Both the position numbers and the translations under genes were made by a program. The notes under the pieces were generated by a model. It searched no databases. It had not been told where the DNA came from and worked only from the letters and a program-made list of their open reading frames with translations. From IMG/VR virus record IMGVR_UViG_2541047911_000001, positions 1 to 15,556 of that record: DNA of 15,556 nt, one strand, 5' to 3'. Of this stretch, positions 1,369 through 12,673 are shown one piece after another; within the stretch, counting starts at the first letter, position 1, and each line of letters begins with the position of its first letter. Origin of the DNA: a virus (taxonomy: Duplodnaviria; Heunggongvirae; Uroviricota; Caudoviricetes).

Positions 1369-1444
1369 GCCGATATAGCTCAGTTGGTAGAGCAGCGCAT
1401 TCGTAATGCGAAGGTCGTAGGTTCGACTCCTATTATCGGCACCA
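1369..1444 (+). tRNA. thrW: tRNA-Thr, anticodon CGU
   Basis: 76-nt sequence GCCGATATAGCTCAGTTGGTAGAGCAGCGCATTCGTAATGCGAAGGTCGTAGGTTCGACTCCTATTATCGGCACCA folds as a cloverleaf (acceptor GCCGATA/TATCGGC, anticodon loop TTCGTAA, T-loop GGTTCGA, CCA end); lies directly after proA as thrW does in E. coli. Confidence 0.9.
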
Positions 1445-1610: not shown

Positions 1611-2825
1611 GTGAAACTCAATGCCCGTCAAATAGACACTGCCAAGCCAAAAGAGAAGGCTTACAAGCTGGCTGATGGTGGTGGTCTGTATCTCTTGGTA
1701 AAACCTAGTGGAGGAAAATATTGGCGCTTCAAGTATCGTGTAGCTGGTAAAGAGAAGCTGTTAGCACTAGGTGTGTATCCTGAAGTTACCTTGGCTGATG
1801 CTCGTGCAAAACGTGAAGAAGCTAAAAGGGGTATCGCTGGGGGTATCGATCCGATGGAAGCGAAACGAGAGGAAAAGATTGCCCGGGAAACGCAGTTAAA
1901 CAACACCTTCAAAGATATTGCCCTTGAGTGGCACAGCAGCAAATTAAAAAAATGGTCTGCTGGTTATGCTTCAGACATCCTCGAAGCCTTCAACAAAGAT
2001 GTGTTCCCTTACATTGGCAAAAAACCAATCGCCGAAATCAAACCACTTGAACTGCTGAATGTGCTGCGGCGCATCGAGGGGCGCGGTGCTACCGAAAAAG
2101 CCAAAAAAGTGAGGCAGCGATGTGGGGAAGTTTTCCGCTATGCAATTGTCACTGGACGTGCTGAGTATAACCCTGCACCGGATCTCACCAGCGCGATGCA
2201 AGGTCATGAATCTAATCATTATCCTTTCCTCACAGCCAAAGAATTACCTGATTTTTTCAAGGCATTGTCCAGTTACTCAGGAAGTGCATTGGTTGTTATG
2301 GCGGCTCGTTTACTGATTATCACCGGTTTGCGGACTGGCGAACTGCGCGGTGCATTATGGGATGAAATCGATCTCAACAAGGCTATCTGGGAGATACCTG
2401 CTTCACGGATGAAAATGCGTCGCCCTCATGTAGTGCCTTTGTCTGAGCAGGCTCTTTCGCTTATTGGGCAGATTAAAGAACTAACTGGCAATTATCCGCT
2501 TATGTTTCCCGGCCGTAATGATCCAAGGAAAACAATGAGCGAGGCTAGCATAAACCAAGTATTTAAACGCATCGGCTATAACGGAAAGGTTACTGGTCAT
2601 GGCTTCCGGCACACTATGAGCACCATTTTGCATGAGCAGGGCTATAACACCGCGTGGATAGAGACACAGCTTGCGCACGTCGATAAAAACTCAATTCGTG
2701 GCACATACAACCATGCGCAATATCTGGATGGGCGGCGGGAAATGCTTCAGTGGTACGCTGATTATATGGATTCGCTCGAGCATGGCGGAAATGTGGTGCA
2801 TGGTGAGTTCGGAAAATGCGGGTGA
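1611..2825 (+). CDS. int: P4-type tyrosine integrase (site-specific recombinase), 404 aa, GTG start
   Basis: Starts 167 bp after the tRNA; GGAGG Shine-Dalgarno at ~1596-1600; N-terminal MKLNARQIDTAKPKEKAYKLADGGGLYLLVKP is typical of P4-family integrases; C-terminal region carries catalytic-type residues (…HGFRHT…, …LAHVD…, …RGTYNHAQY…). Confidence 0.9.
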   Translation: MKLNARQIDTAKPKEKAYKLADGGGLYLLVKPSGGKYWRFKYRVAGKEKLLALGVYPEVTLADARAKREEAKRGIAGGIDPMEAKREEKIARETQLNNTFKDIALEWHSSKLKKWSAGYASDILEAFNKDVFPYIGKKPIAEIKPLELLNVLRRIEGRGATEKAKKVRQRCGEVFRYAIVTGRAEYNPAPDLTSAMQGHESNHYPFLTAKELPDFFKALSSYSGSALVVMAARLLIITGLRTGELRGALWDEIDLNKAIWEIPASRMKMRRPHVVPLSEQALSLIGQIKELTGNYPLMFPGRNDPRKTMSEASINQVFKRIGYNGKVTGHGFRHTMSTILHEQGYNTAWIETQLAHVDKNSIRGTYNHAQYLDGRREMLQWYADYMDSLEHGGNVVHGEFGKCG

Positions 2826-2953
2826 CTGGTTGAGTATACAGTAGTAGACTTTGAGCGACGAAAGAAAAGGCTGTGTCTAGGGTCGCTCCCGAAAATCCGT
2901 ACACCTCGACGGACTGGTACAGCCACTACAGTAGAGGACGCTGAGGTGTGCGT

Positions 2954-3751
2954 ATGATTGATATTCATGCCGAATTAAACGAATACAAAAAAGATTTTAT
3001 TTCTTTACGTGAATTTCTTGAGGTCGTGCTTAAGGTCGCTGGTGATGATTATGATGTTTCAGATGTCATAACTTGGATACTCAGGAGAATAAGCGGAGAA
3101 CATATCCGCCTGTACACAGTAAATGAATTTAAGCTGTTGGAATCTTTTTGTAACCCGTATCGGGATGAATTTGATAATGATGTTCTTTATAGAAATCTGA
3201 ATGCGGTTCGGAAACGTGGTTGTTTACCTGGTGAGAGGGATGAAAATGGTTTTCTGGTGTCCGGTTATTGGGAAGATCCCGAATTTGAGAACATTGGATT
3301 TATAAGGGGTGAAATTTTCGCAATTTTTCCCGATGTCCTTGACGCGTTAACGAAGCTGGAAGGCGCTAACTCTTCTGAAAATGACGAGGCACAAGGACGC
3401 GATATTGAAAAGAAAGAGTTGCGTACAGAGGATGATTTATTATCCCAAATCGCAATGCTGGAAAAAGAAAACGCAGAGTTAAGGGCAAGGATAGAGCAGT
3501 TAGAGCAAGAGCGCCCGATACACTTATATAAATACTGGGATAAAGACCCATTAGCTAAGGCTATTGAGATTAGAAACAGAGAGTGGGCCAATTACGATCC
3601 AGAAAATGATTTTGCCACCAGGGGAAATCAAGAAGCGATAACCAGGGAGCTTAAGCAGTGGGGGGCAAGTAATGCACTTGCAACGCTCATAGAGAGGACT
3701 GCCTGCCCTATTAACCGAGACAACAGCCAAAAGAACGCAAAGCCGGATTAA
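2954..3751 (+). CDS. hypothetical protein, 265 aa, acidic with a coiled-coil/leucine-zipper-like segment; possible accessory gene
   Basis: ATG at 2954 preceded by GAGG (2944-2947); the ORF track starts it at the in-frame GTG 2948. Visibly lower GC than the flanking int. Coiled-coil-like segment LLSQIAMLEKENAELRARIEQLEQE. No family recognised. Confidence 0.6.
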   Translation: MIDIHAELNEYKKDFISLREFLEVVLKVAGDDYDVSDVITWILRRISGEHIRLYTVNEFKLLESFCNPYRDEFDNDVLYRNLNAVRKRGCLPGERDENGFLVSGYWEDPEFENIGFIRGEIFAIFPDVLDALTKLEGANSSENDEAQGRDIEKKELRTEDDLLSQIAMLEKENAELRARIEQLEQERPIHLYKYWDKDPLAKAIEIRNREWANYDPENDFATRGNQEAITRELKQWGASNALATLIERTACPINRDNSQKNAKPD

Positions 3752-3766
3752 CGCACCATACCGCAT

Positions 3767-3909
3767 ACCCTGAGGGTGATTTACTGTTACCCTGAGGGTA
3801 TTTTTTTATCTTCCCCGTCAATTTTACCATCACCCTTAGGGTAGATTTCCTCCCGATTACCATCACCCTTAGGGTAGATTTCCTTCCGGTAACCATTAGG
3901 CCTGAGGGT
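3767..3909. promoter_or_regulatory. Array of five ACCCT(G/T)AGGGT palindromes, including a perfect 25-bp direct repeat, upstream of the alpA-like gene
   Basis: ACCCTGAGGGT at 3767-3777 and 3789-3799; ACCATCACCCTTAGGGTAGATTTCC at 3826-3850 and 3859-3883 (33-bp periodicity); GCCTGAGGGT at 3899-3909. Confidence 0.55.
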
Positions 3910-3978
3910 ATGAAAATATTCGTTATTTCTGTGCCATGATTACCTCGTCAAATTGAGTAGACGTTATGAGGTAAATAT

Positions 3979-4176
3979 ATGTCAAATACGCTTATTCGTT
4001 TAACAGAAGTTCAGCGTAGAACTGGATATAGCAAGGCATGGATTTATCGCCTTATGGGGCAAGGTAAATTTCCTGCATCAGTTAAAATTGGCTCGCGAGC
4101 TATTGCTTTCGTTGAGAGTGAAATTGACGAGTGGATTAATCAGCGTATTGCGGAATCACGCGGAACAGCTACCTGA
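3979..4176 (+). CDS. alpA: AlpA-family small HTH transcriptional regulator (prophage regulatory protein / excisionase-like), 65 aa
   Basis: Translation MSNTLIRLTEVQRRTGYSKAWIYRLMGQGKFPASVKIGSRAIAFVESEIDEWINQRI matches the AlpA/Xis-type pattern; GAGG Shine-Dalgarno 7-8 nt upstream; int-proximal position typical of P4-like and PICI islands. Symbol denotes family membership only. Confidence 0.75.
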   Translation: MSNTLIRLTEVQRRTGYSKAWIYRLMGQGKFPASVKIGSRAIAFVESEIDEWINQRIAESRGTAT

Positions 4177-4253
4177 TTAAATGGCTACGGGGCTATTGCC
4201 CCCAGCTATCCACCAGCAAATAAAAGTAACTTAATTCGATAGCAGGAGTTTTT

Positions 4254-5054
4254 ATGAAATTTCCAAAAATGCCCGTACAGGGGCGGGGCTTCGTTCGGCC
4301 TGAAAACCAGAATCTGCAAAATCTCGGCGAAATTATCCCGATTATTTCCGGCGTTATTGGCGGGAGTGAAACCAATATTGTTAGTGCCAGAGCGTTACAT
4401 AAGGCGTTAGGTGTAGGGCGCGTTTTCCGTTCGTGGATCAAGGGGCGCATTGAAGAATACGGCTTCACGGAAGGCGTGGATTATGAGGTTGTTGAATATT
4501 TGAGCCGACCCGATCCGGTGAGCGCAAAATCTCGCCAGCAAACAGCTCTTGAGTACATCATCACCGTGAACATGGCGAAAGAACTGGCGATGGTCGAACG
4601 TACCGAACAGGGCCGCGCCGTTCGCCAGTACTTTATCAAATGCGAGGAGGAGCTACACAAGGTTGCGCCTGTTCGTTCCGCAGCGTTACGCCGGGAACTG
4701 AAAGCCCGTATCACAGTTGCCAGCTACTTTAAGCCAATGTGTGCCGCGCTGGAGGCGTACCGGGCTGAACTGGGTAAAAACACACTCCAGCACCACTACA
4801 CCACGGAAGCGAACATGCTGGCGCGTATCGTGCTGGGTGGCATGACTGCAAAACAGTGGGCACTGGCGAACGGCATTACAGGCGAACCACGCGACCACAT
4901 GAGCACGTTGCAGCTTGAGCACCTTTCTTACCTTGAGCAGAGCAATATCACGCTGATTGAGTTAGGCCAGGACTACCACCAGCGGAAGGCTGAATTAATT
5001 CGTCTTTCGCAGCGTTGGTTAGCCCGTCGCATGGAGGAAAACAGCCATGTGTAA
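4254..5054 (+). CDS. AntA/AntB-like phage antirepressor-domain protein, 266 aa
   Basis: CAGGAG Shine-Dalgarno before the ATG; N-terminal region (…SARALHKALGV…FRSWIKGRIEEYGFTEGVDYEV… and …TALEYIITVNMAKELAMVERTEQGRAVRQYFIKCEEEL) resembles the AntA antirepressor N-terminal domain; C-terminal half unassigned. Confidence 0.6.
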   Translation: MKFPKMPVQGRGFVRPENQNLQNLGEIIPIISGVIGGSETNIVSARALHKALGVGRVFRSWIKGRIEEYGFTEGVDYEVVEYLSRPDPVSAKSRQQTALEYIITVNMAKELAMVERTEQGRAVRQYFIKCEEELHKVAPVRSAALRRELKARITVASYFKPMCAALEAYRAELGKNTLQHHYTTEANMLARIVLGGMTAKQWALANGITGEPRDHMSTLQLEHLSYLEQSNITLIELGQDYHQRKAELIRLSQRWLARRMEENSHV

Positions 5055-6354
5055 CGCTCTGACCGTTACAAAAAGAGAAAGCGCCCCGTTGCCGGAGCGC
5101 CTTTGTGAACGAATAGCCTACTGCGCCATATTGCTTACTGTCTACGAGGCAGATTATAGCGTTGTGGTCGCACAGAGTGAAGGCGCTGATCACCGTTACT
5201 ACAGCACGCCAGAAATGCAGAATATTTTGCTGCAAAATGTCGTTGGTCACACTGTCCGGAAAGCAAAAAATTTTGCTGGTGGCGCGACTGATGCGATTTT
5301 GTCAGGTCGCCAGGTGCTGATCAATCTGATGTCTGATTTCGTTCTGGATAAAACAAAGGCGACCGCAGAGGGCCGCCAGTGGGAAAGCTACATACTTGAA
5401 CGCATCGCCAACAATGCCAGATTTGCGGCTGGTGGGCAATGTGTCAGCTTTGCACCAATGACTCTATGTTTAACTGAGGGTCATTATGGTGAATATGCTG
5501 GCTTGCTGGTGGGCTATTCCTGCTCTTTAACATTGCCATGCCGCGATGTTTTACAGGTATGCGACCCCATTTTTGTGCGCCTGTACTCTTTAAGGAATTT
5601 CTCAAGGATAAACGCACAGGGCGCGAATCTGTTTGACTCATGCTCGTACGCTATCTTTCTGCGCTGTCTTTTCCGTGCCGGTGATGGTGTATTGGTTGAT
5701 TCTTTGTTGGTCATGGCGCAGCCCTGTAAAACGATGCACCGTAGTTCCTCACACCACGGCGCTGGTGATGGTTACTCCTGTTCTTTGGCCTTGCGGCGCT
5801 GGCGGTATTCAACTTCTCGCTTTAATGCTGCTGTTACAAACTGCCCTGTACTTTCACCAGGCATTTTTACCGCCTCAACATTGTTCATAACTTCATGCGG
5901 AACCCTTGCCGCAACTGTTTGTGATTTTGCGTTTACTGCTTTTGTCGCCATGTTGTGTACCCCTTACAAAAAACAAATGCAGTATGCAGGAAAAAAAATA
6001 AGTGTTCAACACTTGACGTGTTTAACACCTGGGCTTAAATTGGTGTTCAACACCTTGTTGATGCAAGGTGCAGAAACGACAACGCCCCGCAGTGGTGGCA
6101 CACATGCAGGGCGTCTAACCACCAACGATAGCAAGAGTATCGAGGTAGCTATGAGAAATCATACCACACACCCGCAAGGGCGGGACTCGCACAACCTGAA
6201 TAAATACATCTGGCGTTTTATCGCCCTGAGCACGGCACAACCGCGCGTAATTCACATCGAGGCCACCAGCGAACAGGAAGCACGCCAGCAATCTCCTGAT
6301 GGCTGCGTGATGGTATTCGCCGCCCGTATTCGCCAGGAGGTGGAACATGTGTAA
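5047..6354 (+). CDS. Long ORF (435 codons) of doubtful integrity: plausible gene start at 5047 with a protein-like first ~140 codons; the central part is probably not coding
   Basis: Start is translationally coupled to the upstream gene (ATGTGTAA overlap, GGAGGA Shine-Dalgarno). Codons ~150-370 are Cys/Ser/Thr-rich with many rare codons (AGG, ATA, CGG, TTA) and overlap an antisense gene and an operator cluster. Only the last ~67 codons look coding again. Confidence 0.3.
   Translation: MCNALTVTKRESAPLPERLCERIAYCAILLTVYEADYSVVVAQSEGADHRYYSTPEMQNILLQNVVGHTVRKAKNFAGGATDAILSGRQVLINLMSDFVLDKTKATAEGRQWESYILERIANNARFAAGGQCVSFAPMTLCLTEGHYGEYAGLLVGYSCSLTLPCRDVLQVCDPIFVRLYSLRNFSRINAQGANLFDSCSYAIFLRCLFRAGDGVLVDSLLVMAQPCKTMHRSSSHHGAGDGYSCSLALRRWRYSTSRFNAAVTNCPVLSPGIFTASTLFITSCGTLAATVCDFAFTAFVAMLCTPYKKQMQYAGKKISVQHLTCLTPGLKLVFNTLLMQGAETTTPRSGGTHAGRLTTNDSKSIEVAMRNHTTHPQGRDSHNLNKYIWRFIALSTAQPRVIHIEATSEQEARQQSPDGCVMVFAARIRQEVEHV
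5772..5951 (-). CDS. Ribbon-helix-helix-like small DNA-binding protein (59 aa), candidate repressor, antisense to the long ORF
   Basis: Minus-strand ATG at 5951, stop TAA at 5774-5772; translation MATKAVNAKSQTVAARVPHEVMNNVEAVKMPGESTGQFVTAALKREVEYRQRRKAKEQE has a strand-helix-helix pattern and host-like codons; AAGGGG Shine-Dalgarno upstream; divergent from the operator cluster at 6002-6053. Below the 60-aa cutoff of the ORF track. Confidence 0.5.
   Translation of the reverse strand: MATKAVNAKSQTVAARVPHEVMNNVEAVKMPGESTGQFVTAALKREVEYRQRRKAKEQE
6002..6053. promoter_or_regulatory. Three 11-bp palindromic operator-like sites GTGTT-N-AACAC overlapping a rightward promoter-like TTGACG-17-TAAATT
   Basis: GTGTTCAACAC at 6002-6012 and 6043-6053, GTGTTTAACAC at 6018-6028; -35-like TTGACG 6013-6018 and -10-like TAAATT 6036-6041. 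Confidence 0.55.
6151..6354 (+). CDS. small hypothetical protein (67 aa); likely the real first gene of the rightward operon (3' end of the long ORF)
   Basis: ATG at 6151 with GAGG 5-8 nt upstream, about 100 bp downstream of the operator/promoter cluster; ends …IRQEVEHV with an ATGTGTAA overlap into the next gene. Confidence 0.4.
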   Translation: MRNHTTHPQGRDSHNLNKYIWRFIALSTAQPRVIHIEATSEQEARQQSPDGCVMVFAARIRQEVEHV

Positions 6355-12233: not shown

Positions 12234-12673
12234 GCGGGGCGTTATAGTAAGCCAACAGCCAAGCCAAACATTAAGCCTAAGGGTAGGGCTTTTTTGTGGC
12301 TGGTGGCGTAATGCCAACATTGTTACATGATGTTTTGAGGTATTATCTGCATGTTCGTGGTGAGGAACCACCAGAACTGATGAGCTTTTGTTTATGCATG
12401 TACTGCATGAAAACTGTCCTATAAAGTGGGGGTAGGTGTGCTGAGGAGAACATTGTGAGCTACGCCAAATTAAATTGTGTCGGGGGTGAACAAGTTTCTT
12501 GATAGGTGTCAGTAGGCACCTATAGTTATAGGCTTCTTCAATTTTGTGTGCACAATATTTTGTATTGATTGGGGATAGGGTTGCACGCAAAATTAAAAAA
12601 TGTATATTTATTAACGTGTATTTGATGATTTTTAAAAAAAATATTTCTCTATGTTTATCATAAAAGGTTTTTT

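What the first reader, a model, noticed from the sequence alone, without database searches (positions are those of the whole stretch)
3767..3909. Array of perfect ACCCTNAGGGT palindromes with a 25-bp tandem repeat in the alpA leader
Five copies of an 11-bp palindrome (two ACCCTGAGGGT, two ACCCTTAGGGT inside a perfect 25-bp direct repeat spaced 33 bp apart, one GCCTGAGGGT) lie within ~140 bp immediately upstream of the AlpA-family gene. Perfect dyads at helical periodicity are typical of dimeric-regulator operators. This could be where helper-phage or island regulators control alpA and hence island induction. A related CCTAAGGGTAG sequence recurs at about 12275-12285 inside a hairpin before the cargo gene.
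Basis: seen in the sequence. Interest (0 to 1): 0.5.

Follow-up and report, generated by a model that had tools for sequence, protein, structure and literature searches.

The report
Operator array for an island regulator
The repeated ACCCTNAGGGT palindromes in front of alpA are real, conserved and evenly phased, and they always travel with the uncharacterised gene just upstream, so they are most likely that protein's binding sites for switching on or off the master regulator of a phage-parasitic genomic island.

Summary
Four perfect ACCCTNAGGGT dyads (3767, 3789, 3832, 3865) and one degenerate copy (3899) lie between a 265-aa unknown gene ("X", 2954-3751) and alpA (3979-4176), in an E. coli satellite island of the PICI type at tRNA-Thr.

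The dyads survive in relatives whose flanks no longer align. The centre base is free, centres sit at fixed distances from the alpA start, and spacings are multiples of about 11 bp.

The dyads do not follow AlpA. Loci with AlpA 97% or 91% identical, but a different upstream gene, have other palindromes. They follow X: 30 of 30 loci with an X-family gene have them, 0 of 37 without. One prophage has X plus dyads and no alpA.

X has a variable N-terminal part, a leucine zipper and a conserved, weakly HTH-like C-terminal domain. No Pfam family or paper describes it.

Best reading: these are phased operators of dimeric X on the alpA promoter, part of a swappable regulator-operator-promoter cassette. 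Dyads 1 and 2 also form X's terminator. Whether X represses or activates is unresolved; repression relieved by a helper phage is my guess.

The site at 12274 is chance. No binding has been tested.

The parts
1369..1444 (+). tRNA-Thr(CGT), the integration site of the island
   Evidence: ARAGORN and Rfam tRNA. Relatives sit at the same tRNA next to proA.
1611..2825 (+). Tyrosine integrase with an arm-binding domain
   Evidence: Pfam Arm-DNA-bind_3, Phage_int_M and Phage_integrase.
2870..2937 (+). Rfam int-alpA RNA motif. It ends about 15 nt before the start of gene X and marks the conserved left edge of the swappable cassette.
   Evidence: RF02996, 45.5 bits against a gathering score of 35.8. 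It holds the same position before every type of variable gene in 8 other loci.
2954..3751 (+). Gene X (265 aa), the candidate regulator. It has a variable N-terminal part, a leucine-zipper coiled coil (about residues 159-186) and a conserved C-terminal helical domain ending in ...ACPI(N/K)R.
3765..3808 (+). Dyads 1 (3767-3777) and 2 (3789-3799). As RNA they pair into one hairpin followed by UUUUUUAU, an intrinsic terminator of gene X.
   Evidence: RNA fold -23.9 kcal/mol, z = -6.4, 0 of 200 shuffles as stable. The terminator scan also flags the region. The T-run is absent in distant relatives, whereas the 22-23 bp pair spacing is kept.
3824..3889 (+). Two 33-bp tandem units, each carrying a dyad: dyad 3 at 3832-3842 and dyad 4 at 3865-3875.
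   Evidence: Copy number is 1, 2 or 3 in different E. coli strains, and each step preserves the roughly 11-bp phasing.
3893..3909 (+). Promoter-proximal quasi-palindrome CCATTAGGCCTGAGGG, which includes degenerate dyad 5 (3899-3909).
   Evidence: It is conserved in position in relatives, and the two halves change together: CCCTCA-N4-TGAGGG in L149 and L160, CCATTA-N4-TAATGG in L147.
3910..3940 (+). Putative alpA promoter: -35-like ATGAAA (3910-3915), a 19-bp spacer and an extended -10 TGcCATGAT (3932-3940). The inferred start site is near 3947.
   Evidence: TGnNATNAT is kept at the same distance from the ATG in all 8 diverged dyad-type loci. The strict sigma-70 scan found no promoter, so this is a weak promoter inferred from conservation only.
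3942..3972 (+). Conserved leader box (ACCTCGT...ATGAGGT) overlapping the alpA Shine-Dalgarno GAGG at 3968-3971.
   Evidence: The sequence is conserved across cassette types. The hairpin is no more stable than shuffles (z = -0.25) and shows almost no covariation.
3979..4176 (+). alpA, the master activator of islands of this kind
   Evidence: Pfam Phage_AlpA and HTH_17. The role of AlpA in Gram-negative PICIs comes from PMC6092414 and PMC11773190.

Best explanation
The five sites are operators: dyad-symmetric DNA sites, all on one face of the helix (spacings of about 11n bp). They are most likely bound by dimers of the protein encoded just upstream (X, 2954-3751). X would dimerise through its leucine zipper.

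Bound cooperatively, X would form a higher-order complex reaching from about 175 bp upstream down to the -35 region of the weak alpA promoter. That complex would set whether alpA is transcribed. AlpA is the self-activating master switch for excision and replication of satellite islands of this type.

My preferred direction, at about 55-60% if X is the binder, is repression in the quiescent island. Repression would be relieved when a helper-phage product engages X's variable N-terminal part.

X, its operators and the promoter form one cassette. Other cassettes (different regulator families with different palindromes) replace it between the int-alpA RNA motif and the alpA leader.

In this E. coli version, dyads 1 and 2 also serve as the intrinsic terminator of X.

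What is shown and what is inferred:
- Shown: the presence, conservation and phasing of the dyads; their co-occurrence with X; their independence from AlpA.
- Inferred: binding by X, cooperativity, the direction of control, and the helper input.
For: 1. The motif is far above chance: 4 hits against 0.10 expected.

2. It is conserved while its surroundings are not. This holds in E. coli variants whose X is 63% identical. It also holds in viral-contig relatives with AlpA at 74-85% and X at 29-43% identity. All four centre bases occur, and flank positions carry under 0.75 bit.

3. Dyad centres are fixed relative to the alpA ATG in diverged loci: -75, -108/-109, -150 to -153, -173 to -175 and -205/-206. 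Across 35 distinct arrays, 84 of 87 spacings fall into bands at 21-24, 32-34, 42-44 or 54-55 bp.

4. The array is non-coding. All six frames carry stop codons in every relative checked.

5. The dyads track X. In 67 non-redundant AlpA loci, 30 of 30 with an X-family gene have at least 2 dyads and 0 of 37 without it have any.
- AlpA that is 63/65 identical to the window's, but preceded by a different gene (Y family), has AATAGTGGTCGCTATT-type repeats instead.
- AlpA of L147 (with dyads) is 91% identical to AlpA of L129 (without).
- Prophage-like contig L172 has an X homologue followed by 3-4 dyads and no alpA.
- Integrase type and AntA do not track the dyads.

6. A distant X homologue in a 31% G+C organism is followed by ACTATNATAGT dyads: the same geometry with different letters.

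7. X has a zipper for dimerisation and a conserved C-terminal helical domain with weak HTH or winged-helix-like fold matches. The C-terminal domains of Y and X are remote homologues (hhalign probability 85%).

8. Experiments have shown the alpA upstream region of such islands to be induced by helper phage and boosted by AlpA (PMC6092414, PMC11773190). No cis-elements were described there.
Against: - No binding or expression data exist for this island or for X.
- The conserved C-terminal domain is not notably basic (my reading of the alignment, not a computed value).
- It is unclear which part of X would contact DNA.
- Half-site centres are only 6 bp apart, which is unusual for two HTH units.
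- Co-occurrence could partly reflect inheritance of one linked block. The 67 loci are related by descent, so the Fisher p of 1e-19 overstates independence.
- The start site and promoter are inferred, so the operator positions relative to -35/-10, and hence repression versus activation, are uncertain.
- In EcCICFT073 a plasmid-borne alpA reporter was induced by helper phage in strains not stated to carry the island. So at least some islands may be switched on directly by the phage, without an island repressor.
Confidence: 0.6

Rival explanations
1. A helper-phage or host DNA-binding protein recognises the dyads and switches alpA on. X is an unrelated accessory gene that is merely linked to the array.
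For: alpA transcription in related islands depends on helper-phage induction, and the phage inducer is unknown (PMC6092414, PMC11773190). The promoter looks weak and activator-dependent.
Against: The dyads co-occur strictly with X across very diverged loci and are absent with other upstream genes in otherwise similar islands. X plus dyads occurs without alpA in L172.

A scan of 2.9 million viral contigs for dyad pairs returned 52 loci. Of these, 36 are X-alpA islands and L172 carries X without alpA. The other 15 have 30-70% G+C and different flanks. So no helper-like enterobacterial phage was seen with such operators of its own.
Confidence: 0.15
2. AlpA itself binds the palindromes, and these are its autoactivation sites.
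For: AlpA activates its own promoter in EcCICFT073 and probably in EcCIMP1. AlpA is identical in all close E. coli variants that keep the dyads.
Against: AlpA proteins 97% and 91% identical to dyad-linked ones sit behind entirely different repeats. The predicted recognition helix TGYSKAWIYRL is nearly identical in the alleles closest to the window's, with or without dyads. The P. aeruginosa AlpA element GGGACGN5GGTA is non-palindromic and single. L172 has dyads and no alpA.
Confidence: 0.07
3. The repeats act mainly as RNA: terminator, attenuator or 3'-UTR hairpins of the X transcript. They are not protein-binding DNA.
For: Dyads 1 and 2 fold into a strong hairpin followed by a U-run (-23.9 kcal/mol, z = -6.4). 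In L004 the same pair forms a perfect 11-bp stem.
Against: The U-run is missing in distant relatives, yet the dyads stay. The letters ACCCT/AGGGT are conserved rather than merely the pairing. A single 11-nt palindrome with a 1-nt centre cannot form a good hairpin. Dyads 3 to 5 give only z = -1.8. Fixed positions relative to alpA and 11-bp phasing are properties of double-stranded DNA. No Rfam family matches the array.
Confidence: 0.08
4. The array is a chance cluster or a generic dispersed repeat (REP- or MITE-like) with no specific role.
For: Bare pairs of ACCCTNAGGGT also occur in unrelated Chloroflexota, Bacteroidota and other genomes and in unrelated viruses.
Against: None of 200 shuffles reach the observed count. 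In 5,426 complete E. coli genomes the 227-bp region is found in 148 genomes, at 1-2 chromosomal places each; every copy examined lay between X and alpA. The unrelated occurrences have different flanks, and at least some (for example L135, L137, L170) are plain tandem repeats.
Confidence: 0.02

Closest known systems
SaPI/PICI master repressor Stl (Rpr) and its operators in Gram-positive cocci
   Same: In both, a satellite-encoded regulator sits next to int and controls the promoter that starts the island's cycle. Both have a modular build: a conserved module plus a variable part that could sense different helper-phage proteins. This is the logic I propose here. What is known of Stl comes from PMC6092414 and my own knowledge.
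   Different: There is no sequence or Pfam relationship; Stl uses an N-terminal XRE-type HTH. X is co-directional with alpA rather than divergent from it. In X the conserved module is C-terminal. Neither repression nor phage-protein binding by X has been shown.
Helper-inducible, AlpA-autoactivated alpA promoter of Gram-negative PICIs (EcCICFT073, EcCIMP1)
   Same: The gene order is the same (int ... alpA), the island type is the same, and the regulated gene is the same. The region upstream of alpA is where helper induction acts.
   Different: Those studies define no cis-elements and no island-encoded regulator other than AlpA. EcCIMP1 has a small unrelated ORF at this position. Here a specific regulator-operator cassette is present.
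Lambdoid CI/Cro operators (OR, OL)
   Same: Both have several dyad-symmetric sites bound by dimers, with cooperative occupation and a weak site next to the promoter (my own knowledge).
   Different: Here the dyads are 11 bp with one free centre base, rather than 17 bp. There are up to six sites over about 170 bp, spaced in multiples of about 11 bp. The protein has no CI-like domains.
AlpA binding element of Pseudomonas aeruginosa (GGGACGN5GGTA between -35 and -10)
   Same: It is a cis-element tied to an AlpA-family system, and it lies in a promoter.
   Different: It is non-palindromic, occurs as a single copy and is bound by AlpA acting as an antiterminator. The dyads here do not follow AlpA.
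Rho-independent terminators
   Same: Dyads 1 and 2 plus the U-run fit the definition.
   Different: Only two of the five sites take part. The U-run is not conserved in relatives that keep the dyads.

Membership tests
Operator array of a dimeric transcription regulator | Dyad-symmetric sites repeated in a promoter-proximal intergenic region, above chance | tested here: met
   4 perfect and 1 degenerate site within 143 bp before alpA; 0.10 expected.
Operator array of a dimeric transcription regulator | The motif is conserved while flanks diverge, and positions and phasing relative to the regulated gene are kept | tested here: met
Operator array of a dimeric transcription regulator | The motif co-varies with a candidate regulator gene | tested here: met
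   30 of 30 loci with the X family have dyads and 0 of 37 without it do. The Y, Z and W families carry other palindromes.
Operator array of a dimeric transcription regulator | Demonstrated protein binding and an effect on transcription | not testable with these tools
   Needs EMSA or footprinting and reporter assays.
AlpA binding sites (autoregulation, ABE-type) | Sites follow the AlpA protein sequence | tested here: not met
   AlpA 97% and 91% identical occurs without dyads. Dyads occur without alpA in L172.
AlpA binding sites (autoregulation, ABE-type) | Resemblance to the known ABE GGGACGN5GGTA, placed between -35 and -10 | tested here: not met
   No such motif was seen. Only the degenerate fifth site lies near the putative -35.
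Intrinsic (Rho-independent) terminator | A stable G+C-rich hairpin followed directly by a U-run at the 3' end of a gene | tested here: met
   3765-3801 plus U-run; -23.9 kcal/mol, z = -6.4. This applies to dyads 1 and 2 only.
Intrinsic (Rho-independent) terminator | Terminator features are conserved in relatives that keep the repeats | tested here: not met
   No U-run follows the equivalent pair in L147, L160, L161 or L162.
Dispersed generic repeat (REP/MITE-like) | Many copies at unrelated loci of the same genomes | tested here: not met
   1-2 places per E. coli genome; every copy examined lay in this island. No further exact copies occur in the window.
Described RNA family (Rfam 15) | A match at gathering score over 3767-3909 | tested here: not met
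   Only the tRNA and int-alpA (2870-2937) match in the window.
Gram-negative phage-inducible chromosomal island (PICI) | int next to a tRNA att site, alpA downstream of int, Bro/AntA genes, a D5/P4-type primase, all in one direction | tested here: met
   The zone scheme is from PMC10111431.
Gram-negative phage-inducible chromosomal island (PICI) | Induction and packaging by a helper phage | not testable with these tools
   No experiment on this island was found in the library.
Stl/Rpr-type master repressor (for protein X) | Sequence or domain relationship to Stl (XRE-type HTH) | tested here: not met
   No Pfam, NCBIfam, PHROG-function or PADLOC match.
Stl/Rpr-type master repressor (for protein X) | Represses the island's cycle and is inactivated by binding a helper-phage protein | not testable with these tools
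   Inferred only from the modular build and the gene's position.

The most novel reading that the evidence does not exclude
X and the other protein families found at the same position (Y, Z, W, DUF6387) could be the long-missing master regulators of Gram-negative PICIs. Each would be a modular sensor-regulator carried with its own operator array and alpA promoter. The whole unit would be a swappable cassette between the int-alpA RNA motif and the alpA leader. On this reading, the cassette an island carries decides which helper phages can induce it, making it the functional counterpart of Stl in SaPIs, built from unrelated proteins.
Probability: 0.35. Interest if true: 0.8.

Novelty: new variant of a known kind. 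Interest (0 to 1): 0.62.

Why it matters
How helper phages switch on Gram-negative PICIs is an open question. [quoted passage not shown] I found no later paper in the library that resolves this.

This analysis names a concrete protein family and a concrete set of DNA sites in front of alpA. It also shows that regulator, sites and promoter are exchanged together as cassettes.

That makes the question directly testable with simple experiments: X with or without the dyads, and cassette swaps. It may also explain how helper specificity evolves. The practical gain is better annotation of the 'integration zone' of these islands and of the Rfam int-alpA motif.

Tried and rejected
**Searches that led nowhere**
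- Pfam, NCBIfam, PHROGs and PADLOC gave no informative match for X or its long relatives.
- The PDB profile search returned only coiled-coil (zipper) matches.
- The strict sigma-70 promoter scan found no promoter in 3600-4300.
- The phage collection has no relative of the region beyond a weak alpA match in a Salmonella record.

**Ideas considered and rejected**
- A leader hairpin that sequesters the alpA ribosome-binding site. It is no more stable than shuffles (z = -0.25) and shows almost no covariation. I keep it only as a conserved sequence box.
- Integrase arm-type sites. The same integrase type occurs without dyads in L127, and a different one at tRNA-Gly occurs with dyads in L005.
- AntA as the binder. 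AntA is present without dyads in L128 and L130.
- A replication origin or partition site. The array is far from the primase, there is no partition ATPase, and the positions are fixed relative to alpA.
- A coding region on the minus strand. ORF 3711-3896 is open only in the window's own variant.
- A link to the site at 12274, which is at chance level.

Full report
**1. What is there**

The window is an E. coli chromosomal island inserted at tRNA-Thr(CGT), 1369-1444. Its genes run in one direction:
- a tyrosine integrase (1611-2825);
- an unknown 265-aa gene that I call X (2954-3751);
- an AlpA-family gene (3979-4176);
- an AntA/Bro-type gene, a D5/P4-type primase and a ProQ-like gene, among others.

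This layout matches the Gram-negative phage-inducible chromosomal islands (PICIs). It has an integration zone with int and alpA, then a Bro zone, then replication genes (PMC10111431). The same island occurs in about 3% of complete E. coli genomes: 148-164 of 5,426, always on the chromosome.

- ACCCTGAGGGT at 3767 and 3789;
- ACCCTTAGGGT at 3832 and 3865;
- a degenerate GGCCTGAGGGT at 3899.

CCCTNAGGG occurs 4 times against 0.10 expected, and no shuffle of 200 reached 4. The two ACCCTTAGGGT copies lie in a head-to-tail 33-bp repeat.

**2. The repeats are under selection**

*Close relatives.* E. coli strains carry one, two or three copies of the 33-bp unit. Each step adds three helical turns and keeps the register.

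*E. coli variants with a diverged X.* In variants whose X is only 63% identical, the DNA around the dyads differs but the dyads are intact, and the centre base changes freely.

*Distant relatives.* A scan of 2.9 million viral contigs for a pair of dyads returned 52 loci. In 36 of them the dyads lie next to an alpA gene, and almost all of these also show a homologue of X on the other side; a few contigs end before it. These include relatives with AlpA at 74-85% and X at only 29-43% identity, where nothing but the dyads aligns.

*Positions and spacing.* In these diverged loci the dyad centres sit at nearly fixed distances from the alpA start codon: -75 (degenerate), -108/-109, -150 to -153, -173 to -175 and -205/-206. 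Across 35 distinct arrays the spacings fall into bands at 21-24, 32-34, 42-44 and 54-55 bp. Only 3 of 87 lie elsewhere, which gives a period of about 10.8-11 bp.

*Coding potential.* The region is non-coding. Every reading frame carries stops in all relatives checked.

Taken together, these are the marks of protein-binding sites on one face of double-stranded DNA, tied to the alpA promoter.

**3. Who binds? Natural swaps point to X, not AlpA**

*First comparison: other E. coli alpA alleles.* I fetched other E. coli alpA alleles. Where the gene before alpA is not an X homologue, there is no ACCCTNAGGGT.

*Second comparison: 80 AlpA loci from viral contigs, 67 of them non-redundant.*
- All 30 with a strong X-family gene upstream have at least two dyads, allowing up to 1 mismatch.
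- None of the 37 without it has any.
- The loci are related by descent, so the Fisher p of 1e-19 overstates independence.

*The individual contrasts are decisive.*
- L235, L237 and L238 encode an AlpA identical to the window's at 63 of 65 residues. They have a different upstream gene (Y) and a different set of repeats, of the AATAGTGGTCGCTATT type.
- AlpA of L147 (with dyads) is 91% identical to AlpA of L129 (without). It is only 71% identical to the window's AlpA.
- A prophage-like contig, L172, carries an X homologue directly followed by 3-4 dyads and has no alpA at all.

Integrase type and the AntA gene do not follow the dyads either.

A very distant X homologue from a 31% G+C organism is followed by ACTATNATAGT dyads. 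The geometry is the same and the letters differ.

**4. What X looks like**

X has no Pfam, NCBIfam or PADLOC match. PHROGs gave only weak hits to families of unknown function. All 43 homologues found are annotated 'hypothetical'. The whole family amounts to 123 clusters among 1.84 billion representative proteins.

The alignment shows three parts:
- a variable N-terminal part, with several unrelated-looking versions; in some loci it is a separate ORF;
- a leucine-zipper-like coiled coil, for which the only solved-structure matches are Max, GCN4 and C/EBP zippers;
- a conserved C-terminal helical domain, ERPIxL..Y..DDPLxLAIxIRNxEWANYD...ATRGNQ...VACPIxR.

So a zipper-held dimer with a small HTH-like domain is plausible but unproven. 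Which part of X touches DNA is open. Half-sites only 6 bp apart are unusual for paired HTH units.

The Y family's C-terminal domain is a remote homologue of X's: hhalign probability 85%, E = 6e-6.

**5. A cassette system**

The gene between int and alpA comes in several families, each with its own palindromes before alpA:

| Family | Palindromes before alpA |
|---|---|
| X | ACCCTNAGGGT |
| Y | AATAGTG...CTATT and AGTGNCCACT types |
| W | GGAAGACTTCC and AATGAAGTTCATT |
| DUF6387 | no shared palindrome stood out |

On the left, every cassette starts just after the Rfam int-alpA RNA motif. That motif ends about 15 nt before the variable gene's start codon. On the right, similarity resumes 25-40 nt before the alpA ATG. 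So the regulator gene, its sites and the alpA promoter appear to be exchanged as one unit.

**6. Promoter and terminator**

The strict sigma-70 scan found no promoter. Conservation points to an extended -10, TGnNATNAT (window 3932-3940, TGCCATGAT). It is kept in all eight diverged dyad-type loci. A -35-like ATGAAA lies 19 bp upstream.

If the start site is near 3947, the sites are centred near -43, -77, -110, -153 and -175.

The promoter-proximal element is a 16-bp quasi-palindrome at 3893-3908. Its halves change together among relatives.

As RNA, dyads 1 and 2 pair into a hairpin of -23.9 kcal/mol (z = -6.4) followed by a U-run. This is a good intrinsic terminator for X. The U-run is missing in distant relatives, so termination is an added role in this lineage and not the reason the dyads are conserved.

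**7. How it most likely works**

[quoted passage not shown] It is switched on by helper-phage induction and not by SOS. The phage inducer is unknown, and whether a repressor exists is unclear (PMC6092414, PMC11773190).

Against that background I propose the following. Dimers of X occupy the phased dyads cooperatively and control the weak alpA promoter. The variable N-terminal part of X receives the helper-phage signal.

I lean towards repression, at about 55-60%. My reasons, which are inferences rather than tool results, are:
- X lies downstream of int and is likely made in the quiescent state.
- A self-activating, toxic switch needs a tight off state.
- The weakest site abuts the -35 region.

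Activation by X is the alternative.

Rivals are weighed in the structured fields: a phage or host protein as binder (about 0.15), an RNA-only role (about 0.08), AlpA as binder (about 0.07) and chance (about 0.02).

**8. Comparison with what is known**

The proposed logic resembles SaPI Stl and its operators, or lambdoid CI/Cro operators. There is no sequence relationship, however, and the site geometry and gene orientation differ.

It is not an AlpA-binding element of the Pseudomonas type, which is GGGACGN5GGTA, single and non-palindromic. No Rfam family covers the array.

I found no paper in the library that describes X, these dyads or the cassette arrangement.

**9. Verdict**

This is an operator array of a familiar general kind, attached to an undescribed regulator family and to a swappable cassette arrangement in Gram-negative PICIs. 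All functional statements are inferences from comparative sequence analysis. Binding and reporter experiments would settle them quickly.

Noticed in passing
window 2870-2937; also L004 2084-2151, L128 1327-1394, L129 1370-1437, L209 2918-2985, L211 2575-2643, L254 528-595, L263 396-464, L264 646-714: The Rfam 'int-alpA' RNA motif always ends about 15 nt before the start codon of the variable gene between int and alpA, whatever family that gene belongs to. It looks like a 5' leader of that gene and the conserved left edge of the swapped cassette, rather than a free-standing sRNA.
   Followed up: partly
L235 1340-1603, L263 1384-1603, L264 1480-1603, L127/L129 upstream of alpA: Other gene families at the int-alpA position carry their own palindrome sets before alpA. 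Y has AATAGTGGTCGCTATT-type sites. Z has ACCGCAATTGCGGT twice, 21 bp apart. W has GGAAGACTTCC and AATGAAGTTCATT. This suggests a general regulator-plus-operator cassette system.
   Followed up: partly
L147 about 1794-2200 and L161 about 3348-3700 (the ORF upstream of the short X form): Where the N-terminal part of X is a separate ORF, it ends in PMDFDDDIPF. From my own knowledge this matches the C-terminal tip of E. coli SSB, which recruits many DNA-metabolism proteins. It may be mimicry of the SSB tail.
   Followed up: no
window 3942-3972: A leader box (ACCTCGT...TAGACGTTATGAGGT) overlapping the alpA Shine-Dalgarno is conserved across cassette types and travels with alpA. It could pair to mask the ribosome-binding site in read-through transcripts, but its stability (z = -0.25) and covariation do not support a structure. 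It might instead be a protein-binding site.
   Followed up: partly
window 3824-3889; L003, L002, L159: The 33-bp unit varies from 1 to 3 copies among E. coli strains. The number of operators therefore changes in steps of three helical turns.
   Followed up: yes
window 5047-6354: The 435-aa ORF is probably not a real gene over its full length. RefSeq annotation of the near-identical island calls only its last roughly 67 codons (an Icd-like protein) and places two small minus-strand genes inside it (window 5514-5714 and 5772-5951). Relatives carry P4-type C4 and isrK RNAs in this zone, but none reaches the gathering score in the window.
   Followed up: partly
window 12273-12291: A terminator-like hairpin, AAGCCTAAGGGTAGGGCTT followed by TTTT, lies ahead of the 532-aa cargo gene. 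Its loop happens to resemble the dyad.
   Followed up: yes
L172 5081-7025: This is a prophage-like contig (52% G+C). An X homologue follows an XRE-type gene and is followed by 3-4 dyads. It faces a convergent CI-like repressor gene, with no alpA. So the X-dyad pair is also used outside PICI-type islands.
   Followed up: partly
L185 (IMGVR_UViG_3300037313_000197, a 126,890-base contig): There are 21 exact ACCCTNAGGGT sites within 14 kb of a large viral contig that has no X or alpA. This may be that virus's own regulatory or terminator motif.
   Followed up: no
window 3768-3776 and the other dyads: The dyad core CCTNAGG is the recognition sequence of Bsu36I/Eco81I-type restriction enzymes (from my own knowledge). 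This is probably a coincidence.
   Followed up: no
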